From positions 1 to 41,448 of the IMG/VR virus record IMGVR_UViG_3300037510_000344: 41,448 nt of DNA; one strand, 5' to 3'. The notes under the pieces are model-generated. The model worked only from the letters and a program-made list of their open reading frames with translations, did not search any database and was not told the DNA's origin. The translations under genes were made by a program, and so were the position numbers. Positions 483-40,820 of this stretch are shown piece by piece. The stretch's first letter is position 1; the number at the start of each line of letters is the position of its first letter. Source of the DNA: a virus. Taxonomy: Duplodnaviria; Caudoviricetes.

Positions 483-556
483 AGCAGGTTGGTGTAGTAG
501 CAACATTTCGGGCTCATAACCCGAGGCCAAGGGTGCGATTCCCTTACCTGCAACCA
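483..556 (+). tRNA. tRNA-Met (CAT), initiator-like
   Basis: Cloverleaf: GCAGGT/ACCTGC acceptor with 1:72 A.A mismatch, anticodon arm TCGGG-CTCATAA-CCCGA with three G-C pairs, T arm AAGGG/CCCTT, A73, encoded CCA. Confidence 0.85.
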
Positions 557-29637: not shown

Positions 29638-29894
29638 ACGCTTGTGGTGGTTCGCCCTGCTCCAATGCAGAGTGCGCACGTAACCTGCCAAACCGGCTCC
29701 AGGTGGTTTATGAAATCGTCGCAAGCCACCGACCTCCATTGCCTGTATTCAGCGCGGATTTGACTCCAGTTCGGTTCGTTCTCCCATGTGGCTGAGATAT
29801 CGAGATTGTTTGAGGTGAGGGTGATCTTGACTGTGCAAGTATTCCCGGTCTTGAATTTGTGGACGTAGGTCCGTGAGAAAGATTCGTCACTCAT
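29619..29894 (-). CDS. Hypothetical protein
   Basis: ATGA-coupled to dnaB. Confidence 0.55.
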   Translation of the reverse strand: MSDESFSRTYVHKFKTGNTCTVKITLTSNNLDISATWENEPNWSQIRAEYRQWRSVACDDFINHLEPVWQVTCALCIGAGRTTTSVHRAAT

Positions 29895-31306
29895 AGTGGT
29901 AGTTTTGACTGCGTGTCAGGCCCCTTCGGCTCATTCAGATTCACAAACCTGGAGTAGAATTTATCAAATCTGACAGATACATCGCCGACTTCCCCGTTGC
30001 GGTTCTTAGCAACAATGAGAGTTGTTTTCCCGCTGTAGGAATCCTCGTCCTCCTCTTCTGGATGGATGAAAATCACTTTATCGGCGTCCTGTTCGATGGC
30101 GCTGCTCTCTCTCAAATCTGATAGTAACGGCCTTCGCTGTTTGCGTTCTACGTCTCTATCGATCTGCGCCAGAACGATGTGCGGGATTTTGAGGGACCGC
30201 GCGATGTCTTTGCAGGCTCCCGAAATCTCGGCGACCTCGACCGCTCGATTCTGAGCAGCCTTTTTCGAGTCGCTTTTCACGCGCTGAAGGTAGTCGGTGA
30301 AAATGGCTTGTACGCCGTACTCCTGAACGACTCTACGCGCCAAGGCCACGAGGGACTGGATGCTCATGCCGATGCAGTCGTAGAAGTGCATGGGAGCCTT
30401 TGAGAGTTCTTCGCCGGCCTCATTCAGCCTGCGGAAGTCTGCGCTATCACCGTGGCCTTGGCTGAGCTTCAGCGCATTGACCCGTGCGCGTCCGCAGACA
30501 GCTCTCTGCATCAACTGCTGCGCGCTCATCTCAAAGCTGAAAAAAGCGATCGGTCGAGCTAGGGAAATCGCGATGTGCTCCGCGATGTTCATCGCAATTG
30601 CCGTCTTTCCCTTCGACGGTCGAGCCGCAATCACCACATCGTCCCCAGGTTCAAGGCCGTTGAGCTTCCAGTCCAGCTCATGCAGGCCCGTGGTGAGGCC
30701 CCTGAGCGTTCCGGGATGCGCATAGCTATATTCGAGGTTGGAGAGCACGCTTGCCACCAATTGGCTGGCACTGGGCTCTTTGATGACCTGGATTCTTCGG
30801 ATCTTCAGCACCTCCGATTCAAGCTGATCAACGGCACCGCTTACGTCGTCCTGCTCGTTGTAGGCTTTCGTGATGAATTCGGTGCAAACCTTGATCCCGT
30901 TCCGAAGCATGTACTTCTCTTGCAGGATTTCGAGGTAGTAGGAGGCATTTGCCGCGGTTGGCAGGAAGGTGAAGAGATCGGTGGTGAAAGCGGCTCCGCC
31001 GCAACCATCCAGAGTCCCGGCGTCCCTCAGCGCCTGAGTCAGCGTAATGAAGTCGCACACCTCGTGGCGCTCCCAGAACCCCAGCAATGTCTCCCAGATC
31101 GTGGCGTGTGCCGGAATAAAGAACCACTCCTTTGTGACGCCCTTTTCGATGCAGAGTCCAACTACTTCTTTGAAGGCGATGAGGCAGGAGCTGAGCACTC
31201 CCTTCTCGGCATCGGGTGACTGAGGAAGCAGCCGATGTGGATCTGTTGGGTAGGTTTTCTTGGCCGTAGAAGCTGCCGCCAAGTCTTCTGGTGTTGGTTC
31301 GTTCAT
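29891..31306 (-). CDS. dnaB: Replicative DNA helicase DnaB
   Basis: Walker A AARPSKGKT, FSFEMS, DYLQ, LAQIDR, SDLRESSAIEQDAD, AKNRNG. Confidence 0.96.
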   Translation of the reverse strand: MNEPTPEDLAAASTAKKTYPTDPHRLLPQSPDAEKGVLSSCLIAFKEVVGLCIEKGVTKEWFFIPAHATIWETLLGFWERHEVCDFITLTQALRDAGTLDGCGGAAFTTDLFTFLPTAANASYYLEILQEKYMLRNGIKVCTEFITKAYNEQDDVSGAVDQLESEVLKIRRIQVIKEPSASQLVASVLSNLEYSYAHPGTLRGLTTGLHELDWKLNGLEPGDDVVIAARPSKGKTAIAMNIAEHIAISLARPIAFFSFEMSAQQLMQRAVCGRARVNALKLSQGHGDSADFRRLNEAGEELSKAPMHFYDCIGMSIQSLVALARRVVQEYGVQAIFTDYLQRVKSDSKKAAQNRAVEVAEISGACKDIARSLKIPHIVLAQIDRDVERKQRRPLLSDLRESSAIEQDADKVIFIHPEEEDEDSYSGKTTLIVAKNRNGEVGDVSVRFDKFYSRFVNLNEPKGPDTQSKLPL

Positions 31307-31935
31307 TTTGGATAAAGCGTGATTTTCTTTCCGATCCTCTCAACCCTGCATTCCGAGATGACGCCATCCTCGATCCACCTTAATATGCAGCTCATCGCGC
31401 TGCGATCGTTGGAATAGTGGTGTTTGGCTTTTCCTATCAAATCGCGGAGACTGATTCCAGGGAAGGCCTTGATCGTCTCGACCACGTTTCTACAGGTCGC
31501 CTTGAAAGGGGTGTAATATCCGCCTCGATTTCCGCCAGCTGCGCAAAACGTCTTTTGTTCCTCGTGGAGTTCTGGGAGATGTTTCGGCCTTCTCATCGGA
31601 GCCATACGCATTGAAGGATCTTCGCCTTTACCGCGCATCCAGAGATACCCGATACCGAACTCGCGAAGGATCGGTTCGACGCGGTAAGATCCCTTACACA
31701 TGGGAGCCGCAATTGAGACGTAGTGAGTCGCCTCCCTCCAATTCAGAGCCTGCAAAATCACATCGAGGTTTGGGCTTTGCTTGCACTCGATCGCCCAAAG
31801 GACTGGCCCTCTCTTCGCGATCAGATCGCAAATTGATCCGCAATGCTTTACCTCTTGGTAAACCTCCCAATGCGAAGCCGTAAGCCACTCCCTCAAATCT
31901 TGAGCCAATGCAGCCTCGGATTCGTACTTTTTCAC
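31303..31935 (-). CDS. PD-(D/E)xK nuclease-like protein
   Basis: EVYQEV...CDLIA...WAIECK motif; GTG start coupled to the upstream stop. Confidence 0.6.
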   Translation of the reverse strand: MKKYESEAALAQDLREWLTASHWEVYQEVKHCGSICDLIAKRGPVLWAIECKQSPNLDVILQALNWREATHYVSIAAPMCKGSYRVEPILREFGIGYLWMRGKGEDPSMRMAPMRRPKHLPELHEEQKTFCAAGGNRGGYYTPFKATCRNVVETIKAFPGISLRDLIGKAKHHYSNDRSAMSCILRWIEDGVISECRVERIGKKITLYPK

Positions 31936-32468
31936 TGCGCATTCCTCCAAGCCTTGAACTCAGCCTTGGCCCACTCCGGAGCTGATCCGAACTCGAAATC
32001 GTAGGTCTTGTCTTGGCAGAAATGCACCCAGCCTTCAGGAGCTTCTTTCAAGGCCGATTTCGGAGCAACCGCTACCCGATTATCTTTGGCCCAATTGCGG
32101 AAACCATTCCGGGCCGCGCTGTGCCAATTCTTCATCGCGGTTTTCCCGCTGACACGCCAGCCATTGGCTTCGAAGTGGTCGAACCATGACGCAATGTCTT
32201 TCGATGGCCAGCGCCCTTTGATGATCTCGTCGGAAGCGGCGAATTCGATGACCTCAGCCAGCGATTCGGGACGATTCGACGGACCTTTGCGCCGGATCAG
32301 TTGTTGCAGCTCTGCCGATGCAGCTTCGCGATTATCGGCCTTAGCGCGGTCAAGCTTTGCGCCGGCATGATCGCCGTCGAGTTCTTTCACGTCGGCTCCA
32401 GCACGTAAAGACAGCGCGCTTTTCTGTAGGTGCTCCAGCAATCTGGGCATGAGGGATCGATTTTGCAT
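31932..32468 (-). CDS. Replication-associated protein with initiator-type C-terminal domain
   Basis: PESLAEV...WFDHFEANGWRV...MKNWHSAARN resembles the C-terminus of phage replisome organisers; upstream of dnaB. Confidence 0.55.
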   Translation of the reverse strand: MQNRSLMPRLLEHLQKSALSLRAGADVKELDGDHAGAKLDRAKADNREAASAELQQLIRRKGPSNRPESLAEVIEFAASDEIIKGRWPSKDIASWFDHFEANGWRVSGKTAMKNWHSAARNGFRNWAKDNRVAVAPKSALKEAPEGWVHFCQDKTYDFEFGSAPEWAKAEFKAWRNAQ

Positions 32469-33814: not shown

Positions 33815-34618
33815 TTATACGATTTTCTCCATTTCCTTCCGAGCCCATTCCGGGATTCCGATGCGGAGAATGTTCTCGTCGTATCCGGGCCACTGATCTT
33901 TTTCGACGCAGCTCCGGTAAAGGGTCAAGTCGCGCTGGTACATCTTCCGACCGTATTCCAGCACGTCCGGCTCAATTGCGTAGACAGCCACCAGATAGGG
34001 CGCAGTTTTCTCGACGCAAATCAGCACGAATTCCCGTTTATCCATGCCGAGCAGGTTGCACAGATCGATGTAGTAGGCGCCCTGGACGTGGTAACGGTAA
34101 TTGTAGATCGAGCGTTCGAACTCGCTGACGCAGGCTTCAGCCGTGGTCTTGACGTCCGCGACCACGTTTCCGGTGATCGGCAGAAGATCCATACGACCTT
34201 TCCTGAGCGTCCCGTGGCCGTCTGTGGCCCAGAGCGACCGTTCCTTGTCGTGACCAAGCAGAAGCTTTGCGCGCGGATGCTTCCAGAGATTTCCGCACAT
34301 CGCATCGATCTGTGATTTCTCTTCCCTGGTCACGATATCCCTACCAGCATTCTCCGCCTTCCACGCAATTCCCTCTTTGGTGGAAAACTTCATCCCTTCC
34401 GGACGTACCGCCAGTTCGGAAACCGTATCAGGCTCCAAAAGGCAGCGGTGAAGCAGCGCGCCAAACCGCTGCGAATCGGTCGCCTCTGGCTTGCGCTCAA
34501 GATACGCTTTGAGGTGAGCCGGCGTCTTGGGCCATGCAAGCTGATCCAGCATCGACTTGCTGACACCATCGGCGGCGGTGTAGTCCTCGAAGGCTACGGA
34601 ATGAATGCCATCTTTCAT
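33815..34618 (-). CDS. recE: RecE/ExoVIII-like PD-(D/E)xK exonuclease
   Basis: GVSKSMLD, FGALLH..LLEP, KGRMD, DVKTT, YHVQGAYY, VEKTAPY. Confidence 0.85.
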   Translation of the reverse strand: MKDGIHSVAFEDYTAADGVSKSMLDQLAWPKTPAHLKAYLERKPEATDSQRFGALLHRCLLEPDTVSELAVRPEGMKFSTKEGIAWKAENAGRDIVTREEKSQIDAMCGNLWKHPRAKLLLGHDKERSLWATDGHGTLRKGRMDLLPITGNVVADVKTTAEACVSEFERSIYNYRYHVQGAYYIDLCNLLGMDKREFVLICVEKTAPYLVAVYAIEPDVLEYGRKMYQRDLTLYRSCVEKDQWPGYDENILRIGIPEWARKEMEKIV

Positions 34619-35370
34619 TTGGTTTCAGCGTCGAGGGTGAATGCTTGTGCAGCCGATTCTTTAGCGGCCTCAGGCCCAGGAATGAAGGGCTCTTGAGCCG
34701 GACCGCCAATGTCGAGGCCAGAAGCCACTTCGCGAGCCTTCGCTGGCTTCTCGGCGTATTCCCCAGCCATGAGGTCTTGCGCCAACGGAAGACCTTTTAG
34801 CGCATTCGGAAACGCATCGTTCTCGGCGCGATGGCGAGCCTTGTAGCGCAACATGTCTTTCGGATACTGAGACCACGGGCCAGCCTTCTTCCAGAGCCCG
34901 GCGACTTTGGCGTCTGACACGCTGAAGGTTCTACGAACCGGCTCACGATTACGAGGCTTGATGACCGAGACAGCGCACACCTCTTTGTTTGCCGTGATGG
35001 CCGGCGTGACTTCTTCCTCATCGGCGCGCGCGCCATCGACTAGGAAAAATTCATCGATGTCTTCGAATCCGGGCTGATTCATGCAGATCGCAAGGGTTGC
35101 GGGGCCGTAGACACTGACTTTCCCATTGATGACCGCAATGTTTTGAAGCGCCTGCATCGGAGAAAATCCAAGCTCTGCGCCGGTCTGGATCGCCAGCATG
35201 ACTTGCTCCGGCGTCTGAAACGATTTCGGGGCTAGATTGCTGGCGCAGACCGCTCGCGAAAAGCGAAACATGTCTTCCAGCGTAGTAAGTTGCACGCCAC
35301 GTTCAGTGACGAGGATCGGGGCTTTGGGTTGCTCGCGAGTAGCGAGTGCTTCGGGTTGGGGTTCGTTCAT
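34615..35370 (-). CDS. recT: RecT-like ssDNA annealing protein
   Basis: GAELGFSPMQALQNIAVINGK, AKVAGLW...GPWSQYPKDML; start moved to ATG 35370 because the longer ORF overlaps a tRNA. Confidence 0.8.
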   Translation of the reverse strand: MNEPQPEALATREQPKAPILVTERGVQLTTLEDMFRFSRAVCASNLAPKSFQTPEQVMLAIQTGAELGFSPMQALQNIAVINGKVSVYGPATLAICMNQPGFEDIDEFFLVDGARADEEEVTPAITANKEVCAVSVIKPRNREPVRRTFSVSDAKVAGLWKKAGPWSQYPKDMLRYKARHRAENDAFPNALKGLPLAQDLMAGEYAEKPAKAREVASGLDIGGPAQEPFIPGPEAAKESAAQAFTLDAETK

Positions 35371-35388
35371 AAATGCGATGTTGAAAAG

Positions 35389-35480
35389 TGCATCCGGCAG
35401 GGATCGAACCTGCATGGGCTCCGGTAGAAACGGAGTGCCTGTTTAGGAAACAAGTGCCTGATCCATTCGGCCACGGATGC
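35389..35480 (-). tRNA. tRNA-Arg body with two tandem anticodon arms (CCT and TCT)
   Basis: GCATCCG/CGGATGC acceptor, D loop with GGA, CTTGT-TTCCTAA-ACAGG, CTCCG-TTTCTAC-CGGAG, GCAGG-TTCGATC-CCTGC, A73; CCA not encoded. Confidence 0.85.
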
Positions 35481-35585
35481 GAAAACTCGGGACGGCCAGA
35501 TATTGGACTTTTGATCCACCGACCTTTCGGCATCCCGCTGCCGTGAGCTGAACTTACCGCACGTCTGCGGCAGGAGGGCTCAAAG

Positions 35586-35685
35586 TGGGAGGAGTCAAGG
35601 AATCGAACCTTGGCCTGTCTTTTTTGATGCCTACTCCGGGTTTTCCCGTCTCGGACTTACGGTGCTACCATTACACCAACTCCTC
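35586..35685 (-). ncRNA. tRNA-like RNA with the anticodon arm replaced by a ~48-nt insert
   Basis: GAGGAGT/ACTCCTC acceptor followed by CCA, D arm GTGT-AATGGTA-GCAC, T arm CAAGG-TTCGATT-CCTTG. Confidence 0.75.
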
Positions 35686-35695
35686 ATAAAACTCG

Positions 35696-35795
35696 TTGCT
35701 CGGGCCGCGCTGTGGCGGCTAGAGAGTCGCAGCGTATATTCACGCCAGCGGTGCTTCAGGCAAAGCCTTGTACGTCATACCGTACTGCCGAGCAA
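35696..35795 (-). ncRNA. Degenerate tRNA-shaped RNA
   Basis: TTGCTCGG/CCGAGCAA closing stem, D-like GTAC-GGTATGAC-GTAC, T-like GCCGC/GCGGC abutting the 3' strand. Confidence 0.45.
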
Positions 35796-35803
35796 ATCGA
35801 AGG

Positions 35804-35888
35804 GCGAAGCTTGTGCGACAGGACTTCCACCTGCAACTACCCGGAGTCCCGGGCCGTCTTTTGATCGTTGGCGTACGCACAAGCTCGC
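35804..35888 (-). ncRNA. tRNA-like RNA with extended acceptor stem and 4-nt anticodon loop
   Basis: AGCTTGTGCG/CGCACAAGCT, CCCGG-GACT-CCGGG, T arm GCAGG-TGGAAGT-CCTGT. Confidence 0.6.
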
Positions 35889-35904
35889 TTCCTTTCGGAA
35901 AGGG

Positions 35905-36018
35905 CGGCTTTGGCGGGATTTTCACCCGCGAATGGCGTTGACGGAACGCCCGTTTTGTCTCGGTGGTGCGCTTGCTAGGTGGTCATCCAAAGCACCGCTG
36001 CCTACAAACTACAAAGCC
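35905..36018 (-). ncRNA. tRNA-like RNA with ~50-nt D-loop insertion
   Basis: GGCTTTG/CAAAGCC acceptor, TA, D stem GTTT/AAAC, GGCGT-TCCGTCA-ACGCC, T arm GCGGG-TGAAAAT-CCCGC. Confidence 0.65.
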
Positions 36019-36022
36019 GTTT

Positions 36023-36194
36023 AATCTGTGAAAGAACTGCCGGTCTCTCCCGGCTGTCACGACTTCAGGAGTTTCCTCCATTTAGAGCCATGGGTGACGT
36101 GTCGTTCACCTTATTTCCATTTTACGGGGCGTGATCTCAAGCAGCCCCAAGCCCGATATTCACCAGCGCAGGCATCCGCTGGAATCTGTGAAAG
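36023..36194 (-). ncRNA. Multi-hairpin element bracketed by a 12-bp direct repeat (CTTTCACAGATT)
   Basis: Repeats at 36023-36034 and 36183-36194; five hairpins between them, the last GCCGG-GAGAGA-CCGGC. Confidence 0.5.
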
Positions 36195-36195
36195 T

Positions 36196-36363
36196 CTACG
36201 CCTCAATCCCGATCTCTCCAATCGGCACGATTCGCCGACCGCAGAGTTTGCCGGCGTCGATGGCTTGATTGTAGTCGGTGATGGACGGAAGCAGTCCTTG
36301 GTGGATCAAGCCACGGGCAGCTTCGAGCAGCATCAAATCGGTGGAGGTAAGTCGGCGTTTCAT
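36196..36363 (-). CDS. Small hypothetical protein
   Basis: ATG 36363 overlapping the upstream stop. Confidence 0.45.
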   Translation of the reverse strand: MKRRLTSTDLMLLEAARGLIHQGLLPSITDYNQAIDAGKLCGRRIVPIGEIGIEA

Positions 36364-36992
36364 TCGGTTTTTACGGTTTGAGTGTGAACGGAAAGGATTT
36401 CGAAGGCCTCCAGCGGCGTCTTCACCGCGTCGATCAGGTCTTTGATGACCACAACCATTGGATGCGTCCACTTCGCTTCACGGGCCGAAGCTTTGAACGA
36501 CTTCCAGAGCAGGCTGATTTTCTCGGCGTCGTCGTCGGCAACGATCGATTCAGGATGCGGCAGATTGCATGGAACCCGGTCGATTCTAGCGCCCGCGGCT
36601 GCGATGATCAGCTTTGCCCGGATGGCACCATCGAAGCCTTCGGCCAGAACGTAAGAATCCGTTGAGATCGCAAAGTCAACCGGCGGTGGTTGCGGGACGA
36701 TTTCTTCAGCCAGCGGCAATTCCGGCTGATCAGGGTCCGCAATCGTGTCCTCGACCGAATCGCTGTGCTTCTTTGAAAAGCTCAGCGTGGTTTTGATGCG
36801 ACGATCCTTGTCCGCGTGATTGCCAGATTCGGCGTCTCGGAGCGTGATCTTGAATGAGGCGTGGAGATTGATTTCTCCTTCTTCAGCAATGATCGCTGAA
36901 ACCTCGGGCCAATTGCGGCCCAGAAGGGTGGAGAATTGGACGCCGCCTTTTTCGGCAATGTCTTTGGCGAGTTCGGTCGTGATTTCACTCAT
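36360..36992 (-). CDS. Hypothetical protein
   Basis: ATG 36992; DPDQPELPL linker typical of phage early proteins. Confidence 0.65.
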   Translation of the reverse strand: MSEITTELAKDIAEKGGVQFSTLLGRNWPEVSAIIAEEGEINLHASFKITLRDAESGNHADKDRRIKTTLSFSKKHSDSVEDTIADPDQPELPLAEEIVPQPPPVDFAISTDSYVLAEGFDGAIRAKLIIAAAGARIDRVPCNLPHPESIVADDDAEKISLLWKSFKASAREAKWTHPMVVVIKDLIDAVKTPLEAFEILSVHTQTVKTE

Positions 36993-39823: not shown

Positions 39824-40402
39824 TTAGGGCTTTCTATTGATGTATTTCACTCCGCTTTTCTCTCGGATTCGGTGCCAACAACAGCCGATGAAATATTGAA
39901 ATTTTACTGCGGCTTCTTCTTTTCTGGCTGTCGCGTGGATGCATTCGATGATTTCCGTCAGCGGTAGTCTCTTCACGAAGTAGAGGATTTTGGGACGTAC
40001 ATTGCCCGCCATGGGGCCAAATGTTTCGGCCCATTCCTTCAAGACGATTTCGACAGCTTCTTGACCTTGGTTCTCGATCGATCTTCTAATTCCCCGAAAC
40101 TTCTCAACGTCCGCGGCGATCCTTTTTGAGACTTCTTCTTCGTCGTAAAGCATTTGGCCTTTCCCCAAATTGCATGATCTACACGCCGCAACCAAATTTG
40201 TGAGATCGTCGCTCCCTCCTTCGCTTTTGGGCTTGAGATGGTCGACCTGAAGTTGTGCATCTGGACTTTTGTCTCCGCAATAGCGGCAGGCAAATCCAGC
40301 GATCGAAAGAACTTCAAATCTGGTAGTCAGAGAAAGACCTTCCCTTTTCCACTTCGGCCCCTTCTTTTTTTGATTCACCTTATCGGGCGTTGCGGATTTC
40401 AT
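39824..40402 (-). CDS. HNH endonuclease
   Basis: RFEVL..FACRYCG...VDHLKPKSEGGSDDLTNLVAACRSCNLGK. Confidence 0.85.
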   Translation of the reverse strand: MKSATPDKVNQKKKGPKWKREGLSLTTRFEVLSIAGFACRYCGDKSPDAQLQVDHLKPKSEGGSDDLTNLVAACRSCNLGKGQMLYDEEEVSKRIAADVEKFRGIRRSIENQGQEAVEIVLKEWAETFGPMAGNVRPKILYFVKRLPLTEIIECIHATARKEEAAVKFQYFIGCCWHRIREKSGVKYINRKP

Positions 40403-40820
40403 CGACTGTTGGTTCGGAGATTTGATTTTCAATTACAGCGCCGTTCACTCGTTCTGCTGGGTCGTGAATGTGAATTCCAGCCGCTGCCGCTCTTTTGCGC
40501 GCCGCTGCCCTTCCACCAGAAGAAGCCAGAATCCGGTTCTTGCGGGCCTTGTCTTCGTGCCGCTGCGGATAAAAGGCCACCTTGATTGAATCTCCTTCGA
40601 ACCACCAAAGGTCACAGTCGGTCATGGCTTCTTTGCGTGTGACGCCGGCTATTTGTTGCCACTTGCGATCCGACCACTCTCGACAATCCTCGATTATCCC
40701 ATGGTTTTCTTGCCCGATCGCGAAACGAAGCAAGCAAAGCCAAGTAGCGCGTTGAATTGGGTCGGCACCCTTAAACTCCGGCCCATCTAAGGCGGAGATG
40801 TGAATGTTGAGCCATTCCAT
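40380..40820 (-). CDS. Replication initiator N-terminal-like protein (YdaU/DUF1376-like)
   Basis: MEWLNIH...RATWLCLL...then basic ARKNRILASSGGRAAA, the usual initiator N-domain layout. Confidence 0.45.
   Translation of the reverse strand: MEWLNIHISALDGPEFKGADPIQRATWLCLLRFAIGQENHGIIEDCREWSDRKWQQIAGVTRKEAMTDCDLWWFEGDSIKVAFYPQRHEDKARKNRILASSGGRAAARKRAAAAGIHIHDPAERVNGAVIENQISEPTVDEIRNAR

What the first reader, a model, noticed from the sequence alone, without database searches (positions are those of the whole stretch)
35389..35480. tRNA-Arg with two anticodon arms in tandem, for AGG and AGA
Seen: one 92-nt tRNA body carries CTTGT-TT(CCT)AA-ACAGG then CTCCG-TT(TCT)AC-CGGAG, each a 5-bp stem with a 7-nt loop, U33 and A37. 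An 8-nt direct repeat CAGGCACT (35453-35460 and 35434-35441, period 19) precedes each arm. Deleting either 19-nt unit leaves a canonical 73-nt tRNA-Arg. The two stems differ in sequence but both pair, so this is not a fresh duplication. Known: A20 and A73 are ArgRS identity elements and both are present; AGA/AGG are typically rare codons. Inference: a switchable or dual-specificity tRNA, a recombination-resolvable cassette (recET is adjacent), or a nuclease decoy with a spare anticodon in the variable-arm position.
Basis: partly seen in the sequence, partly recalled or inferred. Interest (0 to 1): 0.88.

Follow-up and report, generated by a model that had tools for sequence, protein, structure and literature searches.

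The report
Phage arginine tRNA, two anticodon arms
This soil-phage gene encodes a transfer RNA with two complete arginine anticodon arms in a row (for AGG and AGA), a layout that recurs with different paired sequences in other virus and metagenome DNA, and it likely refolds so that either arm can be the reading arm, which would let one tRNA serve two codons.

Summary
Confirmed (minus strand, 35480-35389). No sign of a chimera: one contig, no 73-nt allele (possibly the source run). Three other genes pair CCU with UCU behind the same CA linker, one in reverse order; three more pair UCU with ACG. Stems differ but stay paired, and both loops are always Arg. In all four CCU/UCU genes arm 1 ends in a second copy of the D-arm 3' strand, and arm 2 is followed by a normal 4-5-nt variable loop, so the D stem can pair in two registers. 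I infer a switch tRNA (0.5); the second register is 4-8 kcal/mol less stable on paper. Rival: arm 2 is a nuclease decoy (0.2). The RecET cassette idea is not supported. The same five-helix design occurs in 83 distinct phage tRNA-Ile genes (UAU plus GAU), some in cultured E. coli phages. Expression, charging and decoding are untested.

The parts
35389..35480 (-). two-anticodon tRNA-Arg gene, 92 nt (G1 at 35480, A73 at 35389; CCA not encoded)
35474..35480 (-). acceptor stem 5' strand (pairs 7/7 with 35396-35390)
35455..35473 (-). positions 8-26: D arm with A15, G18G19, A20 (35462) and the first D-stem 3' strand (register A)
35438..35454 (-). anticodon arm 1, anticodon CCU (35447-35445), reads AGG
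35436..35440 (-). second copy of the D-arm 3' strand: last three bases of arm 1 plus the CA linker (register B partner)
35419..35435 (-). anticodon arm 2, anticodon UCU (35428-35426), reads AGA
35414..35418 (-). 5-nt spacer, the size of a class I variable loop, ending in U48 (pairs with A15)
35397..35413 (-). T arm
35453..35460 (-). 8-nt direct repeat, copy 1
35434..35441 (-). 8-nt direct repeat, copy 2 (period 19)
34615..35370 (-). context only: RecT-like gene starting 19 nt after the tRNA, followed by exonuclease VIII (33815-34618)

Best explanation
The gene encodes a five-helix arginine tRNA with two intact anticodon arms (CCU and UCU) and two copies of the D-arm 3' strand, and it likely works as a two-register switch in which either arm can take the anticodon position, so that one charged tRNA would read both AGG and AGA and would keep a spare reading arm if one loop were cut. 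Shown: the anatomy, its recurrence, compensatory changes in every long stem, the 15-48 pair kept in five of five aligned genes, Arg identity elements A20, C35, U36, A73. Inferred: in register A the D-stem 5' strand pairs with the first 3' strand, arm 1 is the anticodon arm and arm 2 sits in the variable-arm slot; in register B it pairs with the second copy, arm 2 becomes the anticodon arm with a normal 5-nt variable loop, and arm 1 is pushed out into the D loop after A20. Host ArgRS would charge either form, and a flip cannot cause mistranslation because both loops are Arg. Register B is predicted to be the minor form and would need protein binding, base modification or a cut in loop 1. Origin is likely a 19-nt slippage duplication, then kept and diverged under selection.
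For: (1) Four distinct CCU/UCU genes (window, L070/L105, L097/L153, L245) with different acceptor, T and arm-2 stems; arm 2 was not constrained by the search pattern for L070 and L097, and neither anticodon for L245, yet arm 2 is the partner AGR anticodon in 3 of 3. (2) Order is reversed in L245, so neither anticodon has a fixed slot. (3) Alignment of five genes: 98.4% of cells paired, two-sided changes at 7/7 acceptor and 5/5 arm-2 pairs, 0 of 500 shuffles as high. (4) Arm 1 ends in AGG before CA in 4 of 4, while acceptor strands average 40% and arm-2 3' strands 30% identity; only 1 of the 50 other distinct anticodon stems in the fetched set ends in AGG. (5) Spacer after arm 2 is 4-5 nt in all. 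(6) The 136-kb provirus holding L245 has about 30 tRNA genes with Arg ACG and CCG but no separate UCU or CCU gene, while it carries both U34 and C34 genes for Ser, Leu(UUR), Thr, Pro and Gln (75% complete). (7) Parallel Ile family: 115 of 119 loci, 83 distinct genes; the upstream D-stem partner keeps 11-24 (82/83) and 12-23 (76/83) without the pattern asking for it, and the two registers differ by a median of 0.6 kcal/mol. (8) AGA+AGG are 42 of 187 Arg codons in the 12 same-strand ORFs counted against 48 of 450 in 22 opposite-strand ORFs, p=0.0002.
Against: Register B costs 4.3 kcal/mol in the window and 4.2-7.6 in the four genes; a nick in loop 1 only lowers this to 2.5-6.0 (secondary structure only). 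Four genes are few, and the AGG could be inherited from one duplication. I picked the aligned genes because their arms pair, so the percent paired is partly circular. In L020 (UCU+ACG) register B is broken and loop 2 has A33; L355 and L403 have no linker and no second D strand, so the switch is not universal among Arg doubles. A modified U34 UCU tRNA can read AGG as well (recalled), which lessens the need for two anticodons. In the Ile family loop 2 has A33 in 82 of 83 genes, which points to a non-decoding role for arm 2 there. 64 of the 67 other well-formed long-region Arg genes parsed have no second anticodon arm, so long extra arms are tolerated without one.
Confidence: 0.5

Rival explanations
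1. Fixed class II-like tRNA-Arg: arm 1 always decodes, and arm 2 is a non-decoding anticodon look-alike in the variable-arm slot that draws off Arg-specific anticodon nucleases (a cut there would leave a working tRNA).
For: Register A is favoured by 4-8 kcal/mol. Long extra arms are common in phage and metagenome tRNA-Arg(UCU/CCU). Colicin D cuts tRNA-Arg between 38 and 39 (PMC9990079, passage); phage tRNAs are proposed to be shaped by such nucleases (PMC10264068, passages).
Against: Does not explain the conserved second D-strand copy, the 4-5-nt spacer, or why arm 2 is always the other AGR anticodon and not the same one. A bait on the same molecule brings the nuclease close to arm 1.
Confidence: 0.2
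2. Division of labour as inferred for the Ile family: one arm is a handle for the synthetase or a modifying enzyme and the other reads the codon.
For: Ile doubles: UAU arm plus GAU arm with A33 in 82 of 83; E. coli IleRS prefers LAU to UAU 360-fold (PMC3575796, passages). L020's ACG arm also has A33.
Against: Both window arms carry C35 and U36, the ArgRS determinants (PMC9976931, passages), both have U33, and their order swaps in L245, so neither looks like a dedicated handle.
Confidence: 0.1
3. A conserved tRNA mimic that is not used in translation (binds ArgRS, EF-Tu or a defence protein).
For: The window gene lies in a row of irregular tRNA-like folds (35685-35588, 35885-35808); CCA is not encoded in the window or L070. 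Some five-stem allo-tRNAs did not work in E. coli translation (PMC5389517, passages).
Against: All canonical motifs are kept, L097, L245 and L020 encode CCA, and in G001 it is the only AGR gene found in a near-complete tRNA set.
Confidence: 0.1
4. Neutral remnant of a duplication or a chance loop in a long variable arm.
For: 13 of 19 bases match between the two units (sequence); L022 and L152 carry longer extra arms that may be decayed copies.
Against: 21 of 200,000 shuffles; recurrence with fully compensated, different arm-2 stems and canonical Arg loops.
Confidence: 0.05
5. DNA-level cassette that RecET resolves into a 73-nt CCU or UCU gene.
For: 8-nt repeat at period 19; RecT and exonuclease VIII adjacent.
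Against: The repeat can remove only arm 1; it is 4-5 nt in relatives; no RecT/RecE hit beside L097, L070, L020 among 12 ORFs scanned; no resolved allele in contigs; 0 of 13 RecT-relative loci hold a tRNA.
Confidence: 0.03
6. Assembly chimera of two strain variants.
For: Only contigs of one run, possibly the source, could be laid.
Against: Single clean contig; the same layout in other records with different sequence.
Confidence: 0.02

Closest known systems
Canonical bacterial and phage tRNA-Arg(UCU) and tRNA-Arg(CCU) (Rfam RF00005; E. coli argU/argW, names recalled)
   Same: 7/5 acceptor branch, D and T motifs, A20, C35, U36, A73; the five closest GenBank phage hits fetched are 72-77-nt genes of this kind
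   Different: 19 extra bases forming a second full anticodon arm and a second D-arm 3' strand
Class II tRNAs (Leu, Ser, bacterial Tyr) and phage long-variable-arm tRNA-Arg seen here
   Same: a helix in the variable-arm slot in register A; G13-A22 D arm
   Different: the helix is a 5-bp, 7-nt-loop anticodon arm of the same amino acid followed by 4-5 nt; the single-arm long-V genes mostly have 3-4-bp stems with 3-5-nt loops
Allo-tRNAs (Mukai et al. 2017, PMC5389517; passages and a supplement search)
   Same: long extra arm; some have AGA/AGG anticodons; some are drawn with five-stem junctions
   Different: allo-tRNAs are 8/4 or 9/3 with G73/U73 and mostly Ser or Ala identity; this gene is 7/5 with A73 and A20; no second anticodon is described in the passages seen (Figure S5 image not visible)
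Chloroplast tRNA-Ser(GCU) said to hold 'two anticodon arms' (PMC10228390, passages)
   Same: the only printed use of the idea that I found
   Different: an ordinary Ser variable arm read as a stop anticodon from a fold prediction; no same-amino-acid pair, no second D strand
Mirror mitochondrial tRNAs (bioRxiv 10.1101/2025.11.12.688142, abstract)
   Same: one locus, two anticodons
   Different: two separate RNAs from opposite strands, different amino acids
Phage two-arm tRNA-Ile (UAU + GAU), unpublished as far as searched; noted earlier in this scan
   Same: five helices, same-amino-acid anticodon pair, second D-arm 3' strand, 4-5-nt spacer
   Different: 6-8-nt linker lets both arms stay folded in both registers; fixed order; A33 in loop 2

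Membership tests
tRNA (RF00005) | cloverleaf core: 7-bp acceptor, D arm with G18G19, 5-bp T arm with T-loop motif, 15-48 pair | tested here: met
   50.9 bits against a cut-off of 29
tRNA (RF00005) | one anticodon arm | tested here: not met
   two arms
tRNA (RF00005) | transcribed, processed, CCA added, charged, used on ribosomes | not testable with these tools
   no RNA holder listed; CCA not encoded
tRNA-Arg (bacterial identity set) | A20, C35, U/G36, A/G73 | tested here: met
   sequence against PMC9976931 passages; met by both arms
Class II tRNA (Leu/Ser/Tyr) | long variable arm | tested here: met
   24-nt region in register A
Class II tRNA (Leu/Ser/Tyr) | Leu, Ser or Tyr anticodon and identity set | tested here: not met
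   Arg anticodons and A20; A73 excludes the Ser G73 set; A73 and A15-U48 are shared with Leu, so some leucylation is not excluded
allo-tRNA | 8/4 or 9/3 acceptor branch | tested here: not met
   7/5 in all five aligned genes; definition from PMC5389517
allo-tRNA | G73 or U73 and Sec-like D arm | tested here: not met
   A73 and a normal D arm in the window
intron-containing tRNA gene | bulge-helix-bulge or group I core around the insert | tested here: inconclusive
   none seen by eye, no intron family in Rfam; insert is itself a conserved anticodon arm; no dedicated motif search run
RecET-resolvable or phase-variable cassette | conserved repeats of useful length and a resolved allele | tested here: not met
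two-arm phage tRNA (Ile type of this scan) | two same-amino-acid anticodon arms, second D-arm 3' strand, 4-5-nt spacer | tested here: met
two-arm phage tRNA (Ile type of this scan) | A33 in loop 2 and near-equal registers | tested here: not met
   U33 in both loops; register B 4.3 kcal/mol higher

The most novel reading that the evidence does not exclude
Phages use a structural class of tRNA that breaks the one-tRNA-one-anticodon rule: a D-stem register shift swaps which of two cognate anticodon arms is presented. In the Arg type both arms decode (AGG or AGA, with a spare after nuclease attack); in the Ile type one arm is shown to the synthetase (GAU) and the other to the ribosome (UAU), separating charging identity from decoding.
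Probability: 0.45. Interest if true: 0.96.

Novelty: new variant of a known kind. Interest (0 to 1): 0.86.

Why it matters
If the switch is real, a single natural tRNA carries two usable anticodons, which no paper found here describes. It would give phage tRNAs a new way to meet rare-codon demand and tRNA-cutting defences, and a natural scaffold for uncoupling charging from decoding in genetic-code engineering. The class is largely invisible to annotation: ARAGORN makes no call over 59 of 83 Ile genes and names only one as Ile, and it reports only arm 1 of the Arg genes. It is directly testable: the Arg gene is 92 nt, and Ile-type genes sit in cultured E. coli, Vibrio and Klebsiella phages.

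Tried and rejected
No RNA holder listed for the locus, so expression is open. Exact CCU-then-UCU scan of the viral collection: 3 matches, all chance. RecT relatives (43-44% identity): 0 of 13 loci hold a tRNA. BLAST of the window gene or region, L245, L097 and L355 against GenBank phages, and of the window gene against plasmids: no full-length match; five partial hits fetched are canonical genes. Any-anticodon double-loop scans: of 29, 41 and 37 loci, only L245's gene had all helices with two canonical loops; the others were chance, canonical tRNAs or Ser variable arms. Genome scan: 46 loci, mostly archaeal intron-bearing Arg genes, no double. 96 of 180 pattern matches were dropped as not well formed before counting. 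One search used a mis-registered structure string and is discarded; one search replaces it. Kin genomes cannot be drawn for a virus record, so host tRNA content is unknown. No sigma-70-like promoter found at 35200-36500. A 2-nt slipped fold of arm 1 exists in the window, L097 and L245 but not L070: not used. Arm 1 as an intron was rejected because an intron has no reason to keep a cognate anticodon loop. Rfam has no family for the layout beyond tRNA.

Full report
Setting. The window is a whole 41,448-nt record with a 14-nt terminal repeat and the genes of a tailed phage: terminase, portal, capsid, endolysin, DnaB, RusA, exonuclease VIII and RecT. The one run that holds it is a soil metagenome. 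The named DnaB relatives are Chthoniobacteraceae at about 49-50% identity, a weak hint of a verrucomicrobial host.

Observation. The gene lies on the minus strand, 35480 to 35389. It has a 7/7 acceptor stem, a D arm with A20, arm 1 (anticodon CCU), a CA linker, arm 2 (anticodon UCU), a 5-nt spacer, a T arm and A73; CCA is not encoded. Both loops have U33 and A37. The predicted best fold is the five-helix form. Of 200,000 shuffles of the 24-nt extra region, 124 give an anticodon-like hairpin and 21 an Arg one. The run's contigs show the locus in one piece at depth 33.8 without variants or joints (contigs drop rare alleles and the run may be the source). All three 19-nt deletions tested give a callable tRNA-Arg, but the 8-nt repeat can remove only arm 1.

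Relatives. A pattern fixing the D arm, a UCU/CCU loop and a long region before the T arm gave 11 viral, 122 metagenome (about 170 estimated; 45 of 64 parts scanned) and 46 genome loci. Of 180 matches including the window, 84 were well formed and 68 distinct. Most are long-variable-arm tRNA-Arg genes with short, unrelated loops, or archaeal intron genes. Three of the 67 non-window genes have a CA linker and a second 17-nt arm: L070/L105 and L097/L153 (CCU then UCU, all stems paired) and L020 (UCU then ACG, 4 of 5 pairs, A33). A pattern allowing any anticodon in both loops gave 29 loci, of which one had all helices, L245, with UCU then CCU; two more scans found only L245 again. Two further UCU+ACG genes without a linker turned up in L355 and L403. 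So the window has three CCU/UCU relatives and three looser ones; every double with arm 1 Arg and this geometry has arm 2 Arg. In five aligned genes 98.4% of cells pair, with two-sided changes at all 7 acceptor pairs and all 5 arm-2 pairs, above all 500 shuffles and all slid controls. I chose these genes for their paired arms, so the weight lies on the different sequences and the free anticodons, not on the percentage. The 15-48 pair covaries (A-U three times, G-C twice), which fits an L-shaped core under selection.

Two registers. In 4 of 4 CCU/UCU genes the last three bases of arm 1 plus the linker repeat the D-arm 3' strand, although acceptor and arm-2 strands are only 30-40% alike; 1 of the 50 other distinct anticodon stems ends that way. 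Arm 2 is followed by 4-5 nt, the size of a class I variable loop. The D-stem 5' strand can therefore pair upstream (register A: arm 1 reads, arm 2 in the variable slot) or downstream (register B: arm 2 reads, arm 1 is extruded after A20). Register B is 4.2-7.6 kcal/mol less stable, 2.5-6.0 after a nick in loop 1. In L020 register B is broken. The provirus holding L245 (75% complete) has 30 Rfam tRNA matches, Arg ACG and CCG genes, and no other UCU or CCU gene. In the window AGA and AGG are twice as frequent among Arg codons on the tRNA's strand (42 of 187 against 48 of 450; ORF choice unverified).

Wider class. A model built from the five genes flagged a second gene beside L020's, a tRNA with Ile arms UAU and GAU. 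A scan for that layout listed 119 loci (about 150 estimated); 115 hold a double gene, 83 distinct, with 37 arm-1, 28 arm-2 and 46 acceptor stems; loop 2 has A33 in 82, CCA is encoded in 81. The downstream D pairs were imposed by my pattern; the upstream ones were not, and they keep 11-24 in 82 and 12-23 in 76 while 10-25 is never Watson-Crick. The registers differ by a median of 0.6 kcal/mol. Covariation on 28 of the 83 exceeds all 500 shuffles. Four of six GenBank phage loci fetched pass a strict parse (E. coli ESCO41 and UALMA_PCEc3, Vibrio River4, Klebsiella KP13-26), three of the four unannotated. Since E. coli IleRS charges UAU 360-fold worse than LAU (PMC3575796, passages), I noted a charge-by-GAU, read-by-UAU idea before seeing that earlier agents of the scan had written the same; that agreement is not independent evidence. 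The Ile family makes register switching more credible as a design, but its A33 shows that arm 2 need not decode.

Mechanism. For the window gene I favour the switch with both arms able to read (0.5): both loops are canonical, both carry the ArgRS determinants C35 and U36 with A20 and A73 (PMC9976931, passages), the order can swap, and the pair is always AGG plus AGA. Against it stand the energy gap, the small sample and the recalled ability of modified UCU to read AGG. A decoy arm (0.2) fits the known attack on tRNA-Arg loops by colicin D (PMC9990079, passage) and on anticodon arms by OLD (PMC12445682, abstract), but not the junction. The RecET cassette is unlikely. That U33 is needed for decoding and that RecT needs longer homology are recalled, not tested.

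Known and new. It is a tRNA-Arg by identity elements, not an allo-tRNA (7/5, A73; PMC5389517 passages; PMC7609411 section 7). Nine literature searches (listings and abstract starts, open-access library only) showed no description of tRNAs with two cognate anticodon arms; the nearest are a fold-based remark on chloroplast tRNA-Ser (PMC10228390, passages) and mirror tRNAs (bioRxiv 2025.11.12.688142, abstract). Two PhiM1 papers mention only 'a tRNA-Ile' (PMC5377504, PMC6115819, passages). The five-stem drawings in Figure S5 of PMC5389517 could not be seen and may bear on novelty, mainly for UAU genes. In the scan's own notes the Ile type is frequent, an Arg(ACG) duplication is noted once, and a word search for the CCU/UCU type and a sequence search found nothing.

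Verdict. Real, conserved and selected anatomy; mechanism inferred. New variant of tRNA, categorically new in mechanism if both arms are used. Interest 0.86.

Noticed in passing
window 35588-35685 (-): 98-nt tRNA-like gene missed by ARAGORN (Rfam 40.5 bits): intact acceptor, D and T arms, with a 42-nt centre lacking a clean anticodon arm; its D and T regions resemble the phage's tRNA at 483-556.
   Followed up: partly
window 35808-35885 (-) and 35890-36200 (-): Further tRNA-like or multi-hairpin folds: a 10-bp closing stem with a 5-bp, 7-nt-loop T-arm-like hairpin, and two related T-loop-like hairpins 238 nt apart. The stretch from about 36190 to 35390 looks like a non-coding RNA row ahead of recT.
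   Followed up: partly
window 483-556 (+): tRNA with CAU anticodon, A1-A72 mismatch, short D loop and an unusual T loop; Met or Ile2 identity not resolved.
   Followed up: no
L017-L027 and many of L056-L177: A broad group of phage and metagenome tRNA-Arg(UCU/CCU) genes with class II-like variable arms of 14-20 nt; not found described in the searches run.
   Followed up: partly
L020:2876-2976 (-), L334-L452, L453, L454, L456, L457: Two-arm tRNA-Ile family (UAU + GAU with A33), 83 distinct genes, present in cultured phages; 20 of 76 loci also hold a normal GAU tRNA and 30 of 76 a CAU tRNA within 1.5 kb.
   Followed up: yes
L066, L115, L148, L159, L172, L184, L197, L152: tRNA-Arg(UCU) genes in small AT-rich phage-like loci with a 29-33-nt extra arm whose loop holds a UCU/CUC-like motif; possibly a remodelled second arm.
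   Followed up: no
L294:9450-9526, L295:440-517, L295:2308-2384: Three tRNA-Leu genes of only 77-78 nt (short variable region) in provirus G001.
   Followed up: no
L022:2984-3086 (-): tRNA-Arg(UCU) missed by ARAGORN with a 33-nt extra region that starts with a copy of the D-arm 3' strand; may be a decayed duplication.
   Followed up: partly
window 29891-31950 and 39824-40432 (-): AGA/AGG codons cluster in DnaB, the gene before it and the HNH gene (11 of 27, 9 of 16 and 9 of 14 Arg codons).
   Followed up: partly
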